From the human T2T-CHM13v2.0 reference genome, Homo sapiens, in NCBI RefSeq assembly GCF_009914755.1, contig NC_060940.1: a DNA stretch of 64,000 bases; one strand, written 5' to 3'. Below, in pieces: positions 17,728 to 64,000 of the stretch; position 1 is the stretch's first letter, and each line of letters starts with the position of its first letter. The position numbers were made by a program, and so were the translations under genes. A model generated the notes under the pieces. That model did not search any database, was not told the origin of the DNA, and saw nothing but the letters and a program-made list of their open reading frames with translations.

Positions 17728-18609
17728 GTACTCGGGATGGTGGCATAGGGTGGGGAAAGGGTCTTCAGGGTCCCAGAGTGTGAGAGTGGGAGTGGAGTCA
17801 GACCATTTAATTAACAAGTATTTACTGGGTGCCTGCTGTATGTCAGTTACCATTTGGGGAGGTGGGGATGTGCAGTAAGGAAGACAAAAGTCCCTGTTCT
17901 AGTGGGAAACTGACACTCCACAGCGGGCCAGATAATAACAGATGGAGATGAGTGCCTAAAAGGAGACAGTGAGAATGATGGGATGAAGTCACTGGGCCCT
18001 CCCCTGGGGCTACACAAGAGGAGAGGTGTCAGATCCACCTGGGAAGGGGCCCTCAGAGGAAGCGACCCTGGAACCGGGACGGTGGGGGAGGGTTCCAGGC
18101 ACTAGCTTTAAATCTGCTCTGCCACTTGCTGGCTGAGTGATGAGACCTTCGGAGCAGGTCCTCCTTCTTTGCTGAGCACCTACCTACTACATGCCAGAAT
18201 CTGGAGACACAGATGCACGGACACAGCAGGGAACAGGACGGGAAGCTCAGGGAGCCCCGTTCTAGTTGGGGAAGACCGACGAGATAAGTATCTAGCAGGC
18301 AGGGCAAAATGACAGCAGGTGGAGGGCGCCGCGGACCCCCTCATCAACCTCCTGGAGAGCCGCGTGTCCCTCCTGGAGCCCCGATGTCCCCATAGGAGAA
18401 GCAGGCATGGTAGCCACTATGAGGATTGGATGAGACAGCGGGGGAAAGGGCGCTCAGCAGCATCCGGGCCGCGTCTGCGCGGTCGCCCCAGTTACTGGGG
18501 ACAGGGTGGGAGGCGAAAACCGCCTTGCTAGAGAGGGAGCTGGAGGGGAGGGCGGCGGGGCGGGCGCTGGAGAGCTGGAAACAGCGCGGCTTCCCCCGGC
18601 CGCCCGCAG

Positions 18610-19455
18610 GTGGGGCTCCCTGAGGACACGGTGAAGCGCTGTGTGCAGCAGCTGGGCCTGGCGCTGGACTTCATGCACGGGCGGCAGCTGGTGCACCGCG
18701 ACATCAAGCCCGAGAACGTGCTGCTGTTCGACCGCGAGTGCCGCCGCGTAAAGCTGGCCGACTTCGGCATGACGCGCCGCGTGGGCTGCCGCGTCAAGCG
18801 CGTGAGCGGCACCATCCCTTACACGGCGCCTGAGGTGTGCCAGGCGGGCCGCGCCGACGGGCTGGCGGTGGACACGGGCGTGGACGTGTGGGCCTTCGGC
18901 GTGCTCATCTTCTGCGTGCTCACCGGCAACTTCCCGTGGGAGGCGGCGTCGGGCGCCGACGCCTTCTTCGAGGAGTTCGTGCGCTGGCAGCGGGGCCGCC
19001 TGCCGGGGCTGCCTTCGCAGTGGCGCCGCTTCACCGAGCCCGCGCTGCGCATGTTCCAGCGCTTACTGGCCCTGGAGCCCGAGCGCCGCGGCCCAGCCAA
19101 GGAGGTGTTCCGCTTCCTCAAGCACGAGCTCACGTCCGAGCTGCGCCGCCGGCCCTCGCACCGCGCGCGCAAGCCCCCCGGGGACCGCCCGCCCGCCGCC
19201 GGGCCACTGCGCCTCGAGGCGCCTGGGCCGCTCAAGCGGACGGTGCTGACCGAGAGCGGCAGCGGCTCCCGGCCCGCGCCCCCCGCCGTCGGGTCGGTGC
19301 CCTTGCCCGTGCCGGTGCCGGTGCCAGTGCCCGTGCCGGTGCCTGTGCCCGAGCCCGGCCTAGCTCCCCAGGGGCCCCCCGGCCGGACCGACGGCCGCGC
19401 GGACAAGAGCAAAGGGCAGGTGGTGCTGGCCACGGCCATCGAGATCTGCGTCTGA
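18610..19455 (+). CDS. SBK1: SBK1 last coding exon ([20 protein letters not shown] motifs; Pro-Val repeat tail); spliced protein 424 aa
   Basis: cccgcAG|GTG acceptor; full kinase C-lobe; TGA at 19453-19455; 143+281=424 aa, the length I recall for SBK1. Confidence 0.97.
19297..19356 (+). repeat. SBK1: Coding (GTGCCN)n hexamer repeat encoding [20 protein letters not shown], the proline-rich SH3-binding segment of SBK1
   Basis: Seen directly in the sequence and translation; the SH3-binding role is recalled knowledge. Confidence 0.85.
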
Positions 19456-21412
19456 GTCGCCTCCGCCGCCCTCGGACCCGGGAGCAGCCCGGGCCCGCCC
19501 CGAGCCGGTGCCCGGTGCGGCGGTAGGGAATGGAGCCACCTCGCCGCGGGGCAGGGGGCGCAGCGGTAGACTAGGCAGGACGCGGCCCGGCACCTGGTCC
19601 GTCCCCGGCGGGCTGGTGAGGGGGCCACCAAAGACCCCTAGCGCGGCCTGGTGAGCGGGGGCTTGGCCCAGAGGAGCCAAGCCGCACAGACCCGAGAATT
19701 CGGAGGCCACCACACAACACACACACACACACATACACACACACACACACACACGCCAGGAGCAAGGGAGCTTTCGGGCCACACTCCCAGACGCCTCCCT
19801 GAGCCCTGGAACCCGGACTCGTTGCTCCTGGCCTTCCATACCCCCTGGCAGATCATCCTGCGGTCCCACCCCAGATCCCCTCCTCCTCGCCATCCCATTC
19901 TGCCCCCTCCCCACCCTGGGTACAGAAAGGGACTGAAGTGTTGGGCAGAGAGGGGGCTTAAGGCCCCTGGGCACAGGCTGGGATCAGGGCAGTGAGCGAA
20001 GGGCAGCTGTGTCCTGCCCTCCCTTCTGGAGGCTGGAGGGGAGAGGCCAAGCCCTTGGAAAATGTAGCAAATGTCTGGATGTCGCATAAGTGCGTGTATG
20101 TGCGGGACAGGCCCCGAGAAGCTAGTGACTCCTGCACACCCCCATTGCACAAATGAAATCACAGCCCAGGAGGGAGGGTAGCTTGGCACTGGCTGAGAAA
20201 TAGAGCTCTCTCCCCGCCCCTCCCCCTAACCACAAGGGATTGTCCTGACAACTTGTGGGGATAGAAGGGCTCACAGGGCAGGGGTCTCAGCTGCCCCCAT
20301 CCTTAGGGCAGGGGAGTTAGTGTGGAGCCGAGAGCAGGTCCCAGCTCCCCCTGCCAGCCGCACTGTCCCAGGCCCAGGGACCTCTGCCGGGTCCTCCCAG
20401 CCCTTGCCACACAGCCTAGACGTAGTAGCCTGGGCTTCCAGCAGGTGGCGAGCTGGTTCGTGCTGGAAATTTCTCCTGGGTTTCTTGGGGTCAAACATGC
20501 CAACCTCCAAGACCCCATCCTCACGTCTCCCACTTTTCTGGCGCTGGAGTGTGCAGGGCGTAGGACCTGCATGTGTGGGTGTGAGAATGGGGGCGGTGGA
20601 CACCAAGGGGCGAGTGTGTGACTAGGTGTGTGTGCACATGTGTAGGGTGCAGACGCATGGGTGCCATCCTTTGCGTTCAGTGACTGTGCGTCCAGACCCC
20701 TCACCAGCGGCCCCCCCACCACACCCTGGTCCTCCCAGGCAGCTGTCCCAGGGCGCCCAGGCCTGCCTTGCACCACAGCCCTCAGGAAATCCGGCAAGGA
20801 GGCCCCTGCAGGTTGGTTCAGGCCCCCAGGTAGCAAAACAGAGACAACAGCAGCCCCGCCTGACCCCCTGCCCCTCTCTGTGGAGGCCCGGGACCCCCGC
20901 AATAAGCACCACATGGGTGAGGCTGTCCCTGTCAGGGTCCCCTGCCAGGGTCCCTCCTGGGGTTCTGGGCCATTTGAGGGGCTCTTTGATGGGCCAGGCC
21001 GGCCAGAGTGAACTCCGAGCACTTTCTGGCTGGTGCCCCAACCTCTCCACTCCCCACTCATTCCCACCTTGAAAAAGGGCTATAGGTCCCCTGCCCTGCC
21101 CGGGTCCAGTTTACAAACAGTGTGGGGTGGCCCCAGGGCCTGGCCCCACTCTCCCTGCTGTGCCCACTCCTCTCCAGACTCCACCTCCCCAGTGGGTATG
21201 GGCCCTCCACATGCCAGGTAAGTAGCAAACCCCCACTCCCTCCAAGGACCAGGTCTCAGAGAAGGCCCTGGTCACTGCCCCCGGCCCACCTGGAGCCCAT
21301 CGGGGCTGCCTCTCCCAGCCGCGACTTCTCCTTTTGCCTTAGGCCTCGCGACATCCTGATCTCTCCTGCAATAACTAGGAATCGAGATTCCACAGTAGAC
21401 GTCCCTTGCCGT

Positions 21413-54413: not shown

Positions 54414-54542
<129 letters not shown>

Positions 54543-54607
54543 TCATCAAACCAGATGACACAAATCAAATGACATTTCACTTTGTTTTGGTCCATTTTGT
54601 TTGTTAG

Positions 54608-54769
<162 letters not shown>

Positions 54770-54925
54770 TGATGCCCTGGCTAGTCTTCAACTCCTGGAC
54801 TCAAGTGATCTGCCCACCTCGGCCCCCTAAAGTGCTGGGATTACAGGCCTGAGCTGTGTAATTTCATGCCGCGTGACACAGCCCAGTAAAAAGGAAGAAA
54901 CCCCGCGGGTCCAGCGTCTACTCAC

Positions 54926-54991
54926 AGGGGTGGGCTGATGGCTGATAAATCCCAGCAGGAGCCAAATGAGGAGCCAAAAGCGCAGCCGCAT
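54926..54991 (-). CDS. NPIPB6: NPIP alternative first coding exon MRLRFWLLIWLLLGFISHQPTP (signal-peptide-like); gives a 428-aa spliced product
   Basis: ATG at 54991; CCT|GTgagt donor, phase 0; basic n-region followed by a hydrophobic h-region. Confidence 0.85.
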
Positions 54992-55044
54992 GTCCTGATC
55001 CTTTCAGGGTGCCCTGAGGCGGCCAGGACAGAGGTGGAGGTGGC

Positions 55045-55245
55045 TTAGGGCAGGGGGGAGGGAAGGGGACGGGGACCGGGGCCGGATCTGAGTTGGGGAG
55101 GGGCAGGGGAGGGGGAGGGGAAGGGGAGGGGGAGGGGAAGGGGAAGGGGAGGGGAAGGGGGGAAGTAAGGGAAGGGAAAGGAGAAGGGGGCTGTTGGGCA
55201 CCTGGAGGAGGTGGAGGAGGAGGACGAGAAGAAGAAAGGGGTCTG
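55045..55245 (+). repeat. Polypurine (GGGGA/GGGAA)n tract, G-quadruplex/triplex-prone, just upstream of the MRLR start
   Basis: More than 15 G3-G6 runs in about 150 bp, purine-only for long stretches. Confidence 0.85.
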
Positions 55246-55739
55246 GGAAAGGATCCGGTTCAAATTAAGTTCTCAAGCGCTGGTGGAAGGTTTAGCTACA
55301 GGTCACGGAGAAGATCAGGGAAGCAACAGGACACGCGGGGCAAGGGAGCGTGAGGCTTAGGAGCAATTAGAGGGAGACAAAAAGGTTCTGCTATCCGCCA
55401 AACCTTCTTCGGTCTGGGCCCTCCCTTAGCAAACCTGGGGCTTTATACTCCCTCTCCACCAATCCCTGATGACCCCGGTGGTGCCTCACAATGGACAATG
55501 CCAAGTAGCGCCCGCATCATTCCAATGACCCCTCCCCCATCTCAGTCTCCCACACTCCTCGCAAGGACAGGTCCTCTCTGGAACCTTCACAAACCTGATT
55601 TCTGGTCCTCCCCAACCAGCTCCCTGTCCCTGCTTCCGGGCGCTCCTTCCTTCCTGAGCTCCCAGGGTTCCTCAAGGTCACTTTTGGCGACAAAACATAA
55701 AAAACAAATGATGGCAGGATGGCAGGAAGAACCTCATAC

Positions 55740-55802
55740 CCAAGCAGAGTGCCAGGTTTTACAGCCTCCGCTCAGCCATTCATATCCTAAGCAACAAAAC
55801 AT
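55740..55802 (-). CDS. NPIPB6: NPIP alternative first coding exon [21 protein letters not shown] (NPIPA-type start)
   Basis: ATG at 55802; TGG|GTatga donor, phase 0; same as the NPIPA1 N-terminus as I recall it. Use in this paralog not shown. Confidence 0.7.
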
Positions 55803-56930
55803 CAGCAGGATGCGGAAGGTCCCGATAGTAAACCATCTCCATCACATCCATGTAGCCATCCGTCCATCAACCCGTATCTCAGGAACAAATGTAGATACAT
55901 TCATTTTAAGCATGCATGGTACATTTACAAAAATTAACCTGACTTATTTTGTTCCAGCAAATCTCAATATATTTGAGAGCAATCAAATCACACAGCACGT
56001 TTCTGATCATATAACTGTGCTAGAAGTCAATGATTAAAAGCTAATTCAAAATTATTATTTGCTTGGAAATTCAAAGTGCCCTTATAAGACATAAACATAA
56101 GAAAGAATCCAAAATGAAACAAGATTGCCTTTCAACTCAATGATAAGATCATAACATGGCAATAAAATGTCTCCCTCTGGCCTGGGAATTCCTCTTTGTG
56201 GCACAAGGTTGTGTGATCTCAAATCACCCCTAACCCACCTAGACATTTTAACATCCGAAACCGAGTGATGATGTCCTTATCTATAATCATCTTACTGCCT
56301 GTGTGTGTGGACTTTAAATTCTGAACCCAAATGAGGGGGAGAAAACCAAGTTGACCTTCATGATTGACCTCTCAGGGATGTCCAAGGAATCTGTGCATTT
56401 CAAGAAACAAAGTTCATCAGCTTCTCTCCTAAGGTATTTGCCCACAATACCCAGAGGGCTTGGCAGCATCATGTGTGATGGGTGGGGAGCTCCAAGCAGG
56501 TGGGCAGGACGCAGGGGTCTGGTGACCAGGACAGACCCCCACTGTCCATCACCTTTCCTGGCCCTGTCCTCAGCTAAACTTCCCACAGGCCTTCTGCCTG
56601 ATCACACAGAGTGTGCCCAAACTCACTCAGGCCTCTGGGAGCTGAAAACCACTGCTTTAAATCCCTTTACCATTTACTATGACATAAGGTTATTGTAAAC
56701 AGGAAATATTCTATTGATGCTACAAATGGAAAGCCAATGCCTTTACCATAAATAGAAAAACAACCCTAAGAAACAAGCAAAACAAAAACAAAACAGGGGC
56801 TGGGTGTGGTGGCTCACGCCTGTAATCCCAGCACTTTGGGAGGCCGAGGTCGGCGGATCACAAGGTCAGGAGTTCCAGACCAGCCTGGCCAATATGGTGA
56901 AACCCTGTCTCTAATAAAATATAAAAATTA

Positions 56931-57074
<144 letters not shown>

Positions 57075-57194
57075 TCAAAAACAGCAACAACTACAAACAA
57101 ACAAAAAACAGGGTTAACAAAACTATGGAATTCAATTCTATTTATATGCTGCAGCCATGTTCCAGCCCTAGATTTGGCTGGGCATGGTGGCTCA

Positions 57195-57546
<352 letters not shown>

Positions 57547-58789
57547 TTAGACCAAAAGTGAATGGCAGAGAGTATTATAATGTCCATGAAGGGTTGCTAG
57601 AGTCACCGTGATCATAGCCCAAGCAGAGACAGGGAAAGGAAGATGTGAGCAGAGTTTGGGGTCTCGAACAATGGAGGTTATTCGTGCAGCCCAGGAAAGG
57701 CTCCCCAAAGCCAGGATCAACCTCCCTTGCAGGCGGTCCCTCATGGAGGCATGGCCAGGCACCTTAGATTTGAGACCAGCTATGTTGCTGCTGACCAGCT
57801 GTGTGACCCTGGGCTGGTTTCCTTCCATACAATGGGAGTGCCAATGGCTGCATGCATGCAAAGACCGTCTGAGGATAGGAGGAAGCAATCTGTTGAGCAC
57901 CCGTGTACCTGAGTGTCATCACCTCCCAAGGGCATCTTTCGTTCCAGAGCTGGCACCTTGGAAGGCCCTTGGTCACTGAAGGCAGTGATGATGGTAACAG
58001 CAGTAAATCATCATTTACGGCTGATGAGGGAAGGCCAGGGGTAGGGCTCCTAGGTCCTGGATAAGAATGAGGGTCTGGGCACTCCTGGGGACAGCTGAGT
58101 GGTAGGACTCCTGGGTCCCCAGGGTGCAGGTCCATCTTCAGTGGCATTGGGCCTAGGCTGGGATGCTGAGTTATCCACTGGAGCATCAGCAGTACAGGCA
58201 GGCACAGAGGCAGTGGATCCATCGGAGGTGGCAGGTGTAGGATCATCTGGTGAGCAAGTAGAGTCACCAAGCCTGGCTGACCACTACCCCCACTATCCCC
58301 ACAGACGATGCCCTGTCCCTTGCCTCATGCTCCGGCAGGGTACAGGCTCGCACCTGGGGCCTCATGGAGCATCTCTCTAAGACCTCTGTGTCCTGGTCAT
58401 TGAATGGGCACTTGAGTCACCCAGGGCCATTGGAACAAAGAGGAAGAATCAGGCCCCACGCTGTTTTGGGAGAGTGTTTAGCACAGGAAAATGCACAGAA
58501 TACATGCACGACACGGGGGCACTGTCAGTGTGGGAGCAATAGTTTACAACCTCCAGCCCTAATCTGAGCACTCTCACCTGTGCAATCTGAAAGGAACAGG
58601 AGACTTGCAGGAAAGACAGTGCCTGGATTTAACTTAAAGGAACTAAAAATGTTGGAATTTTTACTCTTGATATCCTTCCAAATCAACTCTCTCAATGTTC
58701 CCATCCTCAAAACTATCATATGGGGTAACTGAGGCAGTCAGAGATTTACTGACTCAATGTCACTCAATTGATTCTGAGTTCACTGCTGA

Positions 58790-58876
58790 TTACATCCGAC
58801 CAAACTGCTTTTTCTGAAGTCTACTCTGTTTCATCATGCTGGTGATGATTTTGTGCAGCTCTGGGACAAACTCCAC
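58790..58876 (-). pseudogene. ACSM1-like terminal exon remnant VEFVPELHKIITSMMKQSRLQKKQFGRM*
   Basis: cagccAG|GTG acceptor; colinear with, and the same length as, the recalled ACSM1 C-terminus [28 protein letters not shown]. Confidence 0.82.
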
Positions 58877-60100
58877 CTGGCTGAGGATAAAGCAAATCTG
58901 CGGTGACTTAGTCCTCCTGTCATTTCCCATCAGTTCCCCACTCTCCTCCTCTGCCCCTCCACAGTCTCCCATGCAGGCTGACACCATATGACAGCCTTAA
59001 TGGAGTCCACCGAGTATTTCAGGTTCTCTCTTGGGCCACTTGAAAGTGGATGTACCCATGGGATTTGCTTTGACCCAAGAGATGTGAGTGGAAGTGAAGC
59101 GTGTCACCTCGAGGCAAAAGAGTTGGGAGCCATTGAGACTGGCCACCCTCTCCTTCATCTCTTAGAGCAGCTGACAGCTCCCATATGGAGGCTGCTCCTT
59201 TATTCTCGTGGCAGGATGAGGGCATGTGGGGCACAGGGCACAGGAGAGCCATGGAGGATGTGCAGCATGGGCAGGAAAAGAGCCTTCAGTGGTGTACATT
59301 TCCATCGTTTGGGGCTGTTTCTTACCTACAGTGATACCTAGCCCATCCTAGCAGGCATGCACCATCTACCCCACACTCTGTGATGCAGACTAGCGTGCCG
59401 TCAGAACAGGAACTGGTGGTCAGACACACGTAGGTTTCAGTTCCAGCTCTGCCTCTTATTGACTGTAACCTCAGGCTTAACTTTCAGTCTCTGAGCCTCA
59501 GTTTCAACTCTGTAAAATGAGGTGGCTATACCATCTCAGGTTGCAGAGAGAATTAAATGAAATATAAGTGCATGTAGAGCATTGAACCCAGGGCCTGGCA
59601 CACACAGTCAGTACTCAATGTTAGCCATGTAGCTTCATGATGCATACTGATTGTCAATATTCAGACAATCCAGTAAAGTATTACCAAAAATAAAAGTAAA
59701 CTTATTTGCATATGTATTCTTTCAATCTTTATTTTTAAACAGGGTAAAACTATGCATATTCTTTCATAGCCAGTGTTTTTCTCTTCATAGTATATTGTTA
59801 AAATAATTTTATCTTGGACCGGGTGCAGTGGCTCACACCTATAGTCCCAGCACTTTGGGAGGCCACGGTGGGCAGATTACGAGGTCAGGAGTTGACACGA
59901 GCCTGGCCAATATGGTGAAACCCCATCTCTACTAAGAATACAAAAATTAGCTGGGCATGATGGTGCACACCTGTAGTCCCAGCTACTCAGAGGCTGAGGC
60001 AGAGGAATTGCTTGAACCCGGGAGACGGAGGTTGCAGTGAGCCAAGATTGTGCCACTGCACTCCAGCCTGGGCGACAGAGTGAAACTCTGTCTCTCTCTC

Positions 60101-60159
<59 letters not shown>

Positions 60160-60472
60160 CTATATAAATCTCAAAAATAAAAGATCATTTTTGAGATTAT
60201 CATTTTAAAAGACAAGATAATGTTCAACTTAATGACTAATTTAATTATTACTATTGGACTTTTTGTAGACTGCACAGAGCATTCAAAACAAATGAAGGAG
60301 AATAAAAAATATGTATTACATGTTGTAAAATAAATGTGATGTGGTTAATTCTTTTATTCAAAATTATAGAACATATATATGTACTATAGAATGTATTTCT
60401 TATTATGAGTCATGTTAAAAAGTAGTTTAGAAGCTGTTGATTTGAATTTCCTTTTCAAATTTTGCAGGATAA

Positions 60473-60685
<213 letters not shown>

Positions 60686-61071
60686 TGAAGTCCTGGCCTC
60701 AGGTGATCCACCAGCCTCAGCCTCCCAAAATGCTGGGATTACAGGCATGAGTCACCATGCCCAGCCTAAACCTGGCAAGATAATAAATAACCTTTTTAAG
60801 TGTTGTTGGGCACTTGTCTGGTTGTTTTTCTTTAGGTTACCATGCCAGCAATGATTCCTTTTGAGTTTCTGACAGAAGATAGTGGTTTTCATCCAAATAA
60901 GTCAACTACTCTACCCCATCCCTAAGCCACTTGTATGGAAAGAAAAAGAGGAAGAAGCCAGTACTGTGACTGCGTAAGCTTCCCCCAGCATCACCCGATA
61001 TGAGATGTGTGGCAGCTGAGACCCGGGAACTGCTCAAGGGCACCAGGCCCCATCTGTCTGCACTCACTCAC

Positions 61072-61191
61072 CTTCCTCAGGTACTCGCATGGGCATGTCA
61101 CTGACTTTACATGCTGCTGCAGCTCCTTGGTGAGCTGGCTCTGGTCATGCGACAGGAACTGTGGGGTCAGGACAATAGAGAGCTTCACCAT
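61072..61191 (-). CDS. NPIPB6: ACSM1-derived exon used as NPIPB-type first coding exon [40 protein letters not shown]; gives a 446-aa spliced product
   Basis: ATG at 61191; AAG|GTgagt donor, phase 0; similar to recalled ACSM1 [40 protein letters not shown]. Confidence 0.82.
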
Positions 61192-61700
61192 TTGCAGAAT
61201 GAGAACAGCGGCTCATCATGAGTGCCAACCTATTAGATAATTTAAAAAAAAAAAGTGTTGAATGAGTGGAAAAACAAGGTGATGTTTGAGTCTATAGTGG
61301 TCAAGGGCTTCAGAAAAGGACAGAACCAAGTTCAAATTCCTGTACTTTGAATTTCTACTTCATGCCATGCAAAATTACTTTACCCCTTTTAACCTCAGTT
61401 TTCTTCTGTGTGAAACAGGAACAATAGTTTCATTCGTCATTCAGTTTCTCTCAAGGTTTCACGAGATCATACCTATAAAACATCCAAGTCATTTAAATGT
61501 ATCATCATTTCTGTCATAATTAGTGGGATCCATTTCACTATTATTGGATATACAGTTCTGTGCCTGAAACCTACAAAAAAAGAAAATGTTAAGTCTAAAA
61601 AGCATTAGTGATTTCTCATTTTTATATTACTAATTATAACCCTATTTAATCACACAAGGCCTTGTCCGTGGCAGGTGCTCAATAAACACTTGTCGAATCA

Positions 61701-62036
<336 letters not shown>

Positions 62037-62829
62037 CTAAAAACCAATTTCTAGTGGTTTCTAATAAGGAAAAAATGGTTCAAAAAACTGCTAAGCGAGA
62101 TCAAGCAAAACAAAAAAATCTATTACGATAATGTTTTTATAACTGGTATTTAAAACATTGTTGATTCATTCTTTATTTTTATTTTGAGACAGAGTCTCAC
62201 TCTGTCACCCAGGCTGGAGTGCAGTGGCAGGATCTCCGCTCAGTTCAAGCAATTCTCCTGCCTCACCCTCCCGAGTAGCTGGGATTACAGGCGCCCGCCA
62301 CCACGCCCAGCTAGTTTTTGTATTTGTAGCAGAGACCGGGGTTTCACCATGTTGGCCAGGCTGGTCTCCAACTCTCGATTTCAGGTGATCACCCCCTGCC
62401 TGGGCCTCCCAAAGTGCTGGGATTACAGGCTTGAGCCGCCGCGCCCGGCCCTTGTTTTGTTTTCTAGATTGAAGAAAGGTTTTTCTCAGAAGTTATCTAG
62501 AATTTACACCGATTTGGTAAAGCACACTTTTGTGAACAAAGGTGGGTGGAAGCGTTTGTTTTTCCTCCCTATCTGATCCTTCTAAAGTTTGGAAACTATT
62601 CATAAATATTCTTATTTTCATGTACATATGTTCTCTTTATAAGCAGGCTACAATCAGAAAGATTGGTTATATTATCAAGGCTTTGACTGAAACATCCTAT
62701 TTAAGAATATGCAGAAAATTCCTGGCTTCGAGTTTGCAGCCTTACGTTACAGTCAGGGGGAAACTGTCACTCCCTGCAGGCCTGAGAACCTTAGAGCTTT
62801 TCGGGGAGCAACTTGGCAAGGGGGGGTCC

Positions 62830-63450
62830 CAGCAGCTGCTCGCGTGCCAGGAACCATGGGGCACAGCCCCGGGCGACCCTCGGGCCGGCGGGGGCCTTCC
62901 GCTTCCTGGCGTCTTTCTTCCCCGCCCCGCCGGCTGCTGGGGAAGCGGCGGGCGCCCAGTGCCTGGAGGTCGCTCCCTCGCCTCCTCTGGCTGCGGGAAC
63001 GGAGAGGCGGCGGCGGCCGGAGCAGGGTGGGCGGCCTGAGCCGAGAGCCCGGCCGGCCCCCGCGAGGAATATGGCGACCTGCGGCGACCGGAGCAGCAGC
63101 GGCGTCAGTTGCTGCACCGCCGACTTCTTGGAGCAGCGAAAGCGACTCGCGAGAAGACGCCGCCAAGTGGAACCCGGGCCCTGCGGCCCTGGGAGGGGGC
63201 AGCACCGACACAGCCATGAAGCCCCGGGCGCGGCGCTGGGCGCCAACGAGAGCCACGGCAACCTCCAGACGGCGCCACAGCAACCTCTAGGCAGTGCCCA
63301 CACCAGCCTACAGGTGGCGCCCCTCGCACTGCACCTGCCGCGGCCGCCCCGGGTGTGAACTGCGCTGTCAGCAGGGCCGCGCTGACACGGGTGGCCCAGG
63401 CCCGCAGCAGCCGAGGAGCCCAGGGGCACTGCCCGGGGTGACGAGAAGGA
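62830..63450. promoter_or_regulatory. CpG island overlapping the 5' part of the PAWR retrocopy
   Basis: Dense CpG and GC boxes, set against AT-rich DNA at 61.2-62.7 kb. Confidence 0.8.
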
Positions 63451-63689
63451 GAAGACGGTGCCCCAGAAAAAGGCAAGAGCTCAGAGCTCGGGTCCCCGTG
63501 CCAGGAATGGCCAGGAGCAGAAGATGGAGAGGTGGAGATGGAGAAGGAGAAGCAGCAGGTGGGAAGGAGCGGCGCTCCACCGGTGGGGTCAACATGCGCT
63601 GGCTGAGCTTAGAGTATGAAGAGGATGAAGCAAGTCAGAAAGAGCGGAAACGAGAAGGTGCAATGACACAGCAGAGCACAATGCAGAAT
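63071..63689 (+). pseudogene. Processed PAWR (Par-4) pseudogene, frameshifted and 3'-truncated; 5' UTR-like homology may extend to about 62850
   Basis: MATCGDRSSSGVSCCTADFLEQRK ~ PAWR MATGGYRTSSGLGGSTTDFLEEWK; GVNCAV..LTR; RRSTGGVN..EYEEDEASQKERKREGAMTQQSTMQN ~ RRSTGVVN..EYEDDEAGQKERKREDAITQQNTIQN; several frameshifts; no intron. Confidence 0.9.
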
Positions 63690-64000
63690 CCAGCCCTAGG
63701 ACTCCAATAAAGGCTGGGTTTAATTCCAACTCACACCCTCCCACCCCTAATCAGAGAGGATCACAGGAGAGAGAGGACCCAAGGAACACTGGAACCTGAA
63801 GGACAGGAATCTGAGGCCAAGACTGATTGCTGGAAATTGTGGGAATCAGGAAAGGAGAAACTGAGGCAGAATGGGGGGATGGAGGGTGGTGGTGGGGGGC
63901 AGTGAGCTGGGTTAGGAAGGATTAGAAATCAGAACCCTAGGAAGGATCCAGAAAGGAACTGTCCTTAAGAAGGTGCATGCTGCGGCTGGGTACTGTGGCT

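What the first reader, a model, noticed from the sequence alone, without database searches (positions are those of the whole stretch)
62740..63450. Retrocopy-derived CpG island as a candidate antisense promoter and first exon for NPIPB6
Seen: the PAWR retrocopy is heavily frameshifted but still CpG-rich. It lies head-to-head with the NPIP gene, about 1.6 kb upstream of the MVKL exon. A minus-strand donor (aac|GTAAGG at 62745-62740) sits at the island edge facing the acceptor at 61230. A CTCF-like GCCTACAGGTGGCGCC lies at 63306-63321. Inference: CpG retention implies escape from germline methylation, and the island may drive a three-source chimeric transcript: antisense-PAWR first exon, then the ACSM1 exon, then the NPIP core.
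Basis: inference. Interest (0 to 1): 0.72.

Follow-up and report, generated by a model that had tools for sequence, protein, structure and literature searches.

The report
PAWR-retrocopy CpG island upstream of NPIPB6
An old, broken copy of the PAWR gene upstream of NPIPB6 has stayed a CpG island and very likely serves, read backwards, as an alternative start site for NPIP transcripts, as published long-read data show for a sister gene.

Summary
Window 62725-63540 is a CpG island (816 bp, GC 0.70, o/e 0.74). It lies on a frameshifted, intron-less PAWR retrocopy on the + strand, head-to-head with NPIPB6.

- The island keeps its CpGs in all three diverged copies: NPIPB6 with its identical twin at 29.03 Mb, chr16:14.74 Mb, and chr10:96.06 Mb. 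That argues for long-term germline hypomethylation.
- At the 14.74 Mb paralogue, published Iso-seq isoform A2_2 starts antisense inside this island. It splices through a 98-nt exon into the MVKL exon.
- RefSeq's NPIPB6 span ends at 63151, inside the island.
- The A2 donor is absent in NPIPB6. None of the four listed B6/B9 isoforms starts in the island.
- The CTCF-like motif is at chance level.

Two additions:
- The retrocopy and the ACSM-like MVKL exon came together in one chr10-type duplicon, so these are not independent sources.
- NPIPB6 and its twin carry a 3.48-kb deletion. It removes three 5' ends used by MVKL isoforms of other paralogues and brings the island closer.

The parts
62725..63540 (.). 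CpG island (816 bp, GC 0.70, 75 CpG, o/e 0.74)
   Evidence: composition profile
62805..63689 (+). Partial processed PAWR retrocopy: 5'UTR, the ATG-containing exon (BLAST 62854-63595) and the next 78-bp exon (63612-63689). It is frameshifted. No chr12 match was found beyond 63689.
   Evidence: The parent's name is recalled. The ELNNNL motif in the chr12 ORF is the one cited for human Par-4 in the abstract of PMC2923778.
63102..63151 (-). Inferred minus-strand start zone. 63115 is the equivalent of the 5' end of Iso-seq isoform A2_2 at the 14.74 Mb paralogue. 63151 is the end of the RefSeq NPIPB6 gene span.
   Evidence: hub annotation line
62740..62745 (-). Candidate donor AAC|GTAAGG. It lies about 60 bp outside the retrocopy in chr10-type flank. 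GTAAGG is also present in the 14.74 Mb and chr10 copies. Usage is not shown.
62983..62994 (-). Position equivalent to the A2_2 exon-1 donor. The 14.74 Mb copy reads GAG|GTGGGG; NPIPB6 reads GAGGAGG, with no GT.
61881..61882 (.). Junction of a 3.48-kb deletion specific to NPIPB6 and the 29.03 Mb twin. The right side is a truncated Alu. There is 1 bp of microhomology.
61473..61570 (-). 98-nt exon used between the island exon and the MVKL exon in isoform A2_2. The acceptor (..tttgtAG|G) and donor (TAG|GTATGA) are intact in NPIPB6.
61394..61879 (-). RefSeq-selected first exon of NPIPB6. Its 5' end is 2 bp from the deletion junction. Its donor GAG|GTTAAA scores only 2.1.
   Evidence: hub annotation
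61072..61229 (-). MVKL (ACSM-like) first coding exon
   Evidence: hub annotation; PMC12790995 section 10
63307..63321 (+). CTCF-like motif (13 of 15 positions), not above chance
54527..64000 (.). Block collinear with chr10:96047087-96063572, and onward to at least window-equivalent 67952 (chr10 96065672). It includes the MRLR exon (ATG at 54991), the MVKL exon and the PAWR retrocopy.

Best explanation
The island is the CpG-rich 5' part of an old processed PAWR retrocopy, comprising the 5'UTR and the first two coding exons. It has remained an unmethylated-type CpG island at every locus that carries it.

It belongs to a chr10-type duplicon that also supplies the ACSM-like MVKL exon and the MRLR exon of NPIP genes. 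Read on the antisense strand, it acts as an alternative CpG-island promoter and non-coding first exon for MVKL-type NPIP transcripts.

Shown:
- the anatomy of the island and retrocopy;
- the shared origin with the MVKL exon;
- CpG retention across three diverged copies;
- an Iso-seq transcript at the 14.74 Mb NPIPA2/A3-type paralogue that starts in the island and splices via a 98-nt exon to the MVKL exon.

Inferred for NPIPB6:
- The same start zone (about 63115-63151) is used.
- Because the paralogue's donor is missing here, splicing most likely uses the 62745 donor.
- It then joins the 98-nt exon at 61570 and/or the MVKL exon at 61229.
- A 3.48-kb deletion unique to NPIPB6 and its 29.03 Mb twin removed 5' ends used elsewhere. 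It moved the island from 4.9 kb (14.74 Mb copy) to about 1.5 kb upstream of the 98-nt exon, which probably raises the island's share of MVKL-type transcription.
For: - Island and retrocopy.
- One insertion, shared by descent. Both flanks are collinear among NPIPB6, 14.74 Mb and chr10. The block runs from 54527 to at least 67952 at 79-88% identity.
- CpG retention. Island columns hold 73, 72 and 74 CpGs in the three copies, against 89 in the parent. 36 are shared by all three, and 45 of NPIPB6's 73 are shared with chr10. CpG-involved sites differ only 1.6-2.6 times as often as other sites, and about half of those differences are transitions. In the flanks, CpG sites differ at 0.40-0.56 for chr10 comparisons (n = 10-18 sites).
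- Transcript evidence. A2_2 exon 1 maps to chr16:14741045-14741166, equivalent to window 63115-62985 on the minus strand. It is followed by the 98-nt exon and the MVKL exon.
- The hub gives the NPIPB6 span up to 63151.
- Deletion. 13 of 13 other copies carry the same sequence after 61881. 12 of 12 share 1925 bp of it with the 14.74 Mb copy, and chr10 has its homologue.
- The 5' ends of isoforms B3_1, B5_1 and A3_1 map 622, 1283-1288 and 1716-1721 bp into the deleted segment, and are absent from the window plus 6 kb.
- 62745 is the only good donor in the island.
Against: - No B6 or B9 isoform in Table S5 begins in the island. B6_1 starts at the MVKL exon edge, B6_2, B9_1 and B9L1_1 encode the MRLR start (ATG at 54991), and the B9_1 cDNA begins further upstream, outside the island.
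- The paper states that B6-B9 use the MRLR site as transcription start.
- The single base before the MVKL exon in B6_1 is G. That fits the 98-nt exon, the RefSeq exon 1 or unspliced RNA, but not the C that ends a 62746 exon. This is weak evidence because 5' G additions occur.
- Isoform B3_2 shows that a start near the 61815 equivalent exists inside the retained 5'UTR exon, so NPIPB6 does not strictly need the island.
- I could not see the RefSeq exon that ends at 63151. It could rest on reads cross-mapped from the 14.74 Mb paralogue.
- There are no methylation, CAGE or chromatin data here.
Confidence: 0.62

Rival explanations
1. The island is a hypomethylated orphan CpG island that NPIPB6 does not use appreciably. 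It might be a poised or Polycomb-type island, or a promoter for an unannotated + strand RNA. NPIPB6 MVKL transcripts would start inside the retained 5'UTR exon (about 61.8 kb), and most output would come from the MRLR start at about 55 kb.
For: None of the 4 B6/B9 isoforms in Table S5 starts in the island. The paper assigns B6-B9 to the MRLR start. Isoform B3_2 starts at the 61815 equivalent. The A2-type donor is absent in NPIPB6.
Against: The hub's RefSeq span reaches 63151. The same island does fire antisense at the paralogue. The start zone is conserved between the copies. Table S5 lists only the most abundant and longest ORF-bearing isoforms, so minor 5' exons would not appear.
Confidence: 0.27
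2. The CpG richness is only a passive relic of the GC-rich parental exon. It has no epigenetic protection and no function.
For: The parental exon is itself a CpG island (o/e 0.7-1.1), so the copy started CpG-rich.
Against: The copies differ from the parent at 17-21% of non-CpG sites, and from each other at 6.5-17%. Yet they keep 72-74 CpGs, and 45 of NPIPB6's 73 are shared with chr10. With the roughly tenfold faster decay of methylated CpGs (established knowledge), only a few percent should survive in both lineages. Flanking sequence is CpG-depleted.
Confidence: 0.03
3. The element acts mainly as a CTCF-bound boundary or an enhancer rather than as a promoter.
For: A motif matching 13 of 15 positions lies at 63307-63321, and a second 2-mismatch match lies at 63262-63276.
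Against: Such matches are at chance level (22 observed against 13.7 expected). The motif lies in a stretch that is not conserved with chr10 or the parent. No binding data are available.
Confidence: 0.06

Closest known systems
Retrocopies associated with CpG-island promoters (Carelli et al. 2016, PMC4772013; passages read)
   Same: A retrocopy whose transcription is tied to a CpG island. That paper reports about 3% of expressed retrocopies inheriting parental promoter sequence. It also reports about half of novel retrocopy promoters lying in CpG islands, and head-to-head sharing of bidirectional promoters.
   Different: Here the island is the retrocopied parental 5'UTR and coding sequence itself. 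The retrocopy is dead as a gene. The transcript documented at the paralogue runs antisense, out of the retrocopy and into an unrelated chimeric gene.
New promoters and first exons gained by core-duplicon genes through juxtaposed duplications (NPIP: PMC7419210 and bioRxiv 10.1101/116087, passages read; LRRC37: seen only as a reference-list title)
   Same: A primate-expanded gene family gains alternative promoters and 5' exons from sequence placed next to the core duplicon.
   Different: Those NPIP papers describe an Alu/ERV1-associated promoter and a repeat-rich 5'UTR for NPIPB. In the passages I read they mention neither CpG islands nor PAWR.
Published NPIP gene models (Cell Genomics 2025, PMC12790995; section 10 and Table S5 read)
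   Same: The MVKL exon of ACSM origin, the MRLR start for B6-B9, and isoform A2_2, whose cDNA begins in this island.
   Different: My term searches of this paper did not include 'PAWR', and the preprint version had no occurrence of 'CpG'. The library-wide NPIP + PAWR search returned two papers, neither of them this one. The paper attributes the MVKL exon to ACSM1 exon 12, whereas the nearest genomic relative I find is on chr10.
L1 antisense-promoter chimeric transcripts (PMC9396940; search listing and abstract start only)
   Same: A retroposed element's 5' region fires antisense and splices into neighbouring gene exons.
   Different: The source here is a cellular mRNA retrocopy carrying a CpG island. 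It is not a transposon with a dedicated antisense promoter.

Membership tests
CpG island (length/GC/o-e criteria) | At least 200-500 bp, GC >= 0.5-0.55, CpG o/e >= 0.6-0.65 | tested here: met
   816 bp, GC 0.70, o/e 0.74
Processed retrocopy of PAWR | Parental exons contiguous, introns absent | tested here: met
   Two chr12 exons 68.5 kb apart abut at window 63595/63612
Processed retrocopy of PAWR | Covers the mRNA to its 3' end, with a poly(A) tail and target-site duplications | tested here: not met
   The search gave no chr12 match beyond 63689, which is the end of the 78-bp match. No A-run follows in 63690-63760. Target-site duplications were not searched for. The copy is partial, or its 3' part was lost.
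Processed retrocopy of PAWR | The parent is PAWR (Par-4) | tested here: inconclusive
   The chr12 ORF contains ELNNNL, which the abstract of PMC2923778 gives for human Par-4. The gene name and map position are otherwise recalled. PDB and Pfam gave nothing.
Active CpG-island promoter / first exon of an NPIP gene | Transcript 5' ends inside the island on the gene's strand | tested here: inconclusive
   Met at the 14.74 Mb paralogue (A2_2). For NPIPB6 there is only the hub's gene end at 63151. None of the 4 listed B6/B9 isoforms starts there.
Active CpG-island promoter / first exon of an NPIP gene | Unmethylated in the germline | tested here: met
   Indirect only: CpG retention across three copies, with 6.5-17% divergence between them at other sites
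Active CpG-island promoter / first exon of an NPIP gene | H3K4me3, Pol II or CAGE signal | not testable with these tools
   No functional-genomics data are held
Used splice donor at 62745 | Consensus-like GT site, and junction reads | tested here: inconclusive
   The sequence is good: score 6.9, the only site >=4 among 16 in the island. Junction usage cannot be tested here. The paralogue uses another donor.
CTCF site | Motif match better than chance, and occupancy | tested here: not met
   22 matches against 13.7 +/- 3.1 expected at the same stringency. Occupancy is not testable.

The most novel reading that the evidence does not exclude
A PAWR retrocopy older than the chr10/chr16 duplication has been kept as a CpG island at every locus because it is a working promoter module. 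It travelled with the ACSM-like exon into the NPIP family. In the NPIPB6/29.03 Mb pair, a 3.48-kb deletion removed the repeat-rich upstream start sites and made this antisense retrocopy island the proximal promoter of the MVKL-type protein isoform. That would be a paralogue-specific promoter switch inside a fast-evolving human gene family.
Probability: 0.35. Interest if true: 0.62.

Novelty: new member of a known kind. Interest (0 to 1): 0.5.

Why it matters
NPIP is one of the fastest-evolving human and ape gene families. Its paralogues differ mainly in their promoters and 5' exons. This analysis adds four points:
- One such 5' module is a dead PAWR retrocopy read backwards.
- It arrived in the same duplicon as the ACSM-like coding exon.
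- Only three of the 15 copies of the MVKL/5'UTR region in T2T-CHM13 keep it.
- Two of those three carry a deletion that removes start sites used elsewhere.

Together these give a concrete, testable explanation for paralogue-specific regulation. They also refine the published origin of the MVKL exon. If the island proves inactive at NPIPB6, the finding reduces to an annotated alternative 5' end with an unusual ancestry.

Tried and rejected
- Pfam scan of five + strand ORF translations from the island: 0 families.
- PDB sequence search with the chr12 parental ORF: only chance-level rows, E 0.48-0.68.
- PF00501 search of the whole assembly, intended to name the chr10 gene: 15 rows, none on chr10, with only 14 of 97 candidates scored.
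As a result I did not determine the right end of the chr10 block beyond chr10 96065672, or the rest of the chr10 gene.
- CTCF reading rejected as chance-level.
- 'Passive relic' reading rejected on CpG retention.
- Independent PAWR insertions on chr10 and chr16 rejected, because both flanks are collinear.
- Literature searches returned only unrelated gene-list or GWAS-type papers, judged from titles and abstract starts: NPIP + PAWR (2 papers), PAWR pseudogene/retrocopy terms (1 paper), NPIP + ACSM6 (1 paper).
- Filters applied: BLAST rows below stated length cut-offs were dropped (80/150 nt, 350, 400 nt and 88%, 120-200 elsewhere). In some searches only the best HSP per query interval was kept, to suppress Alu cross-hits.

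Full report
**What is there**

Window 62725-63540 is a CpG island: 816 bp, GC 0.70, 75 CpGs, o/e 0.74. The flanks are CpG-poor (o/e 0-0.35). Only the SBK1 island at 18185-19780 is comparable in this window.

I searched the window's own assembly with 62700-64000. This gave 7 matches, with 6 of 6 candidates scored:
- the window itself;
- a 100%-identical inverted twin at chr16:29.03 Mb;
- an 89% copy at chr16:14.74 Mb;
- a 78% copy at chr10:96.06 Mb (two matches, 96062399-96063572 and 96063832-96063889);
- two stretches on chr12.

The chr12 stretches are 79669134-79668398 (68% to window 62854-63595) and 79599862-79599785 (87% to window 63612-63689). They lie 68.5 kb apart on chr12 but abut in the window. 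The element is therefore a processed copy.

The chr12 exon is itself a CpG island. Its ORF carries ELNNNL, the motif that the abstract of PMC2923778 gives for human Par-4. The name PAWR is otherwise my recollection.

The parental peptide aligns to the window in three frames with stops, so the copy is frameshifted. The search found no chr12 match beyond 63689, and no poly(A) run follows. The copy is therefore partial.

The donor AAC|GTAAGG at 62745-62740 is real. I scored all 16 minus-strand GTs in 62700-63160 with a recalled donor matrix. This is the only one scoring >=4 (score 6.9), which puts it in the top 3.4% of the 6575 GTs in the window. It lies about 60 bp outside the retrocopy.

The CTCF-like site exists. 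However, matches at that stringency occur 22 times in the window against 13.7 +/- 3.1 in shuffles. I give it no weight.

**Origin: one duplicon, not three sources**

Window 54527 to at least 67952 (using 6 kb fetched beyond the window) is collinear with chr10:96047087-96065672 at 79-88% identity. Only Alus and indels interrupt it. This block contains:
- the MRLR exon (ATG at 54991);
- the MVKL exon;
- the 5'UTR exon;
- the PAWR retrocopy.

On the chr10 minus strand lie two ACSM-type terminal exons. One is an exon-12-like ORF with an in-frame stop at 96052285. The other is a last exon with PKTVTGKIKR at 96050685.

Taking the MVKL exon alone, identity is:

| Locus | Identity |
|---|---|
| chr10:96.05 Mb | 86.5% |
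| chr11:3.43 Mb | 84.2% |
| chr22:17.72 Mb | 84.2% |
| chr16:20.41-20.56 Mb, three hits (ACSM cluster by recalled position) | 79-83% |

The retrocopy and the ACSM-like exon therefore travelled together. The published origin, 'ACSM1 exon 12' (PMC12790995, section 10), may need refining to this chr10-type locus. I recall that position as the ACSM6 region, but no tool confirmed the name.

**CpG retention**

I aligned NPIPB6, the 14.74 Mb copy, chr10 and the parent. The island columns hold 73, 72, 74 and 89 CpGs respectively. Of these, 36 are shared by all three copies, and 45 of NPIPB6's 73 are shared with chr10.

| Pair | Non-CpG sites differing | CpG-involved sites differing |
|---|---|---|
| NPIPB6 vs 14.74 Mb | 6.5% | 17% |
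| NPIPB6 vs chr10 | 17% | 27% |

About half of the CpG-site differences are transitions. In the flanks, CpG sites differ at 40-56% in the chr10 comparisons (n = 10-18 sites).

Methylated CpGs decay roughly tenfold faster than other sites (established knowledge). Such retention at this divergence therefore implies long-term hypomethylation. It holds at all loci, chr10 included. Island status thus predates the chr10/chr16 duplication that placed this block in the NPIP loci, and is not specific to NPIPB6.

**Who keeps the island**

The MVKL/5'UTR region has 15 copies at >=95% identity. In 13 of 13 copies other than NPIPB6 and its twin, homology to the window stops at 61881 (61878 in one). The same CpG-poor sequence follows in all of them.

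12 of 12 share 1925 bp of that sequence with the 14.74 Mb copy. None of the 12 has the PAWR block within 8 kb upstream. Their chr10 collinearity ends at chr10 96061874, about 290 bp short of the PAWR-bearing block, which starts at chr10 96062162.

The 14.74 Mb copy and chr10 both carry the sequence missing from NPIPB6. NPIPB6 and its twin therefore have a 3,481-bp deletion. Its junction is at 61881/61882, with the right side in an Alu and 1 bp of microhomology.

The RefSeq-selected first exon ends at 61879, 2 bp from this junction. I infer that this 5' end may reflect truncated alignment of paralogue-derived evidence.

**Transcripts**

The Cell Genomics paper built Iso-seq gene models. Its Table S5 shows the first 400 nt of each cDNA.

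Isoform A2_2 (MVKL start) begins with 122 nt that map to chr16:14741045-14741166. This is antisense inside the PAWR island, equivalent to window 63115-62985. It then continues with a 98-nt exon (window 61570-61473) and the MVKL exon. I mapped it by exact short motifs at each exon end, and the spacing agrees with the cDNA.

Its donor (GAG|GTGGGG) is specific to that copy. NPIPB6 and chr10 read GA there.

For NPIPB6:
- The hub gives a gene end at 63151, 36 bp upstream of the A2_2-equivalent start. I could not see the exon.
- Table S5 lists B6_1, B6_2, B9_1 and B9L1_1.
  - By the paper's naming, B6_1 (MVKL) is the most abundant B6 model. Its cDNA begins with one G followed by the first base of the MVKL exon, so it is 5'-incomplete.
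  - B6_2, B9_1 and B9L1_1 encode the MRLR start.
  - None of the four begins in the island.
- The paper says B6-B9 use the MRLR site as their start and are testis-enriched.
- The 5' ends of B3_1, B5_1 and A3_1 map 622, 1283-1288 and 1716-1721 bp beyond the junction. That is inside the segment deleted in NPIPB6, and they are absent from the window plus 6 kb.
- A B3_2-type start near the 61815 equivalent is retained.

**Mechanism and odds**

| Proposition | My probability |
|---|---|
| The island is an alternative antisense CpG-island promoter and first exon for MVKL-type NPIP RNAs, used to some extent at NPIPB6 | about 0.6 |
| The 62745 donor is the one used | about 0.4 |
| A direct 62746>61229 junction is the main form, rather than going via the 98-nt exon | about 0.2 |

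The main rival, at about 0.27, is that the island is hypomethylated but essentially unused by NPIPB6.

**Novelty**

None of my searches returned a paper linking NPIP to PAWR, a PAWR pseudogene in a relevant context, or NPIP to ACSM6. The three NPIP papers I searched for 'CpG' had no occurrence of it.

The transcript and the gene boundary are already in public data. The ACSM origin of the MVKL exon is published. What appears to be new is:
- the retrocopy ancestry of this 5' module;
- its co-origin with the MVKL exon;
- the NPIPB6-type deletion.

In kind, this is a new member of known phenomena: retrocopy-associated CpG-island promoters (PMC4772013) and promoter gain by juxtaposed duplications.

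Noticed in passing
window 61072-61229; chr10:96052032-96052367 (L027): The nearest genomic relative of the MVKL exon is on chr10 (86.5% for the exon alone, inside a collinear block of at least 18 kb). The three hits at chr16:20.41-20.56 Mb, which I recall as the ACSM cluster, are 79-83% identical. The published attribution to ACSM1 exon 12 may need refining.
   Followed up: partly
window 54527-56795: The chr10-collinear block extends left across the MRLR signal-peptide exon (ATG at 54991), at 80% identity to chr10:96047087-96049363. Left of 54527 only Alu matches were found against chr10 96040001-96047087.
   Followed up: partly
window 61879-61882: The 5' end of the RefSeq-selected NPIPB6 transcript (61879) lies 2 bp from the junction of a 3.48-kb deletion specific to NPIPB6 and its 29.03 Mb twin. 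This suggests the annotated start may be an alignment limit rather than a true TSS.
   Followed up: partly
L024/L025 chr11:3.43 Mb; L026 chr22:17.72 Mb; L029/L030 chr10:81.10 and 80.40 Mb: There are further diverged copies (71-84%) of the ACSM-like exon region outside the NPIP family. None has the PAWR block, according to the genome search.
   Followed up: no
chr10:96050665-96052285 minus strand (L037): chr10 carries an exon-12-like ACSM ORF with an in-frame stop, and a last exon with an intact PKTVTGKIKR motif. This looks like a decayed 3' end of an ACSM-family gene, with the PAWR retrocopy about 10 kb upstream on the opposite strand.
   Followed up: partly
window 63067-63079: The PAWR start-codon context (..GAATATGGCGACC..) read on the minus strand gives GTCGCCATATT. 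From memory this resembles a YY1 core motif. It lies 37-80 bp downstream of the inferred minus-strand start zone. Not tested.
   Followed up: no
window 63690-63934: The sequence just after the last PAWR-homologous exon is shared with chr10 and the 14.74 Mb copy, and the search gave no chr12 match for it. The retrocopied RNA may have been an alternative PAWR isoform, or the 3' part may have been replaced.
   Followed up: no
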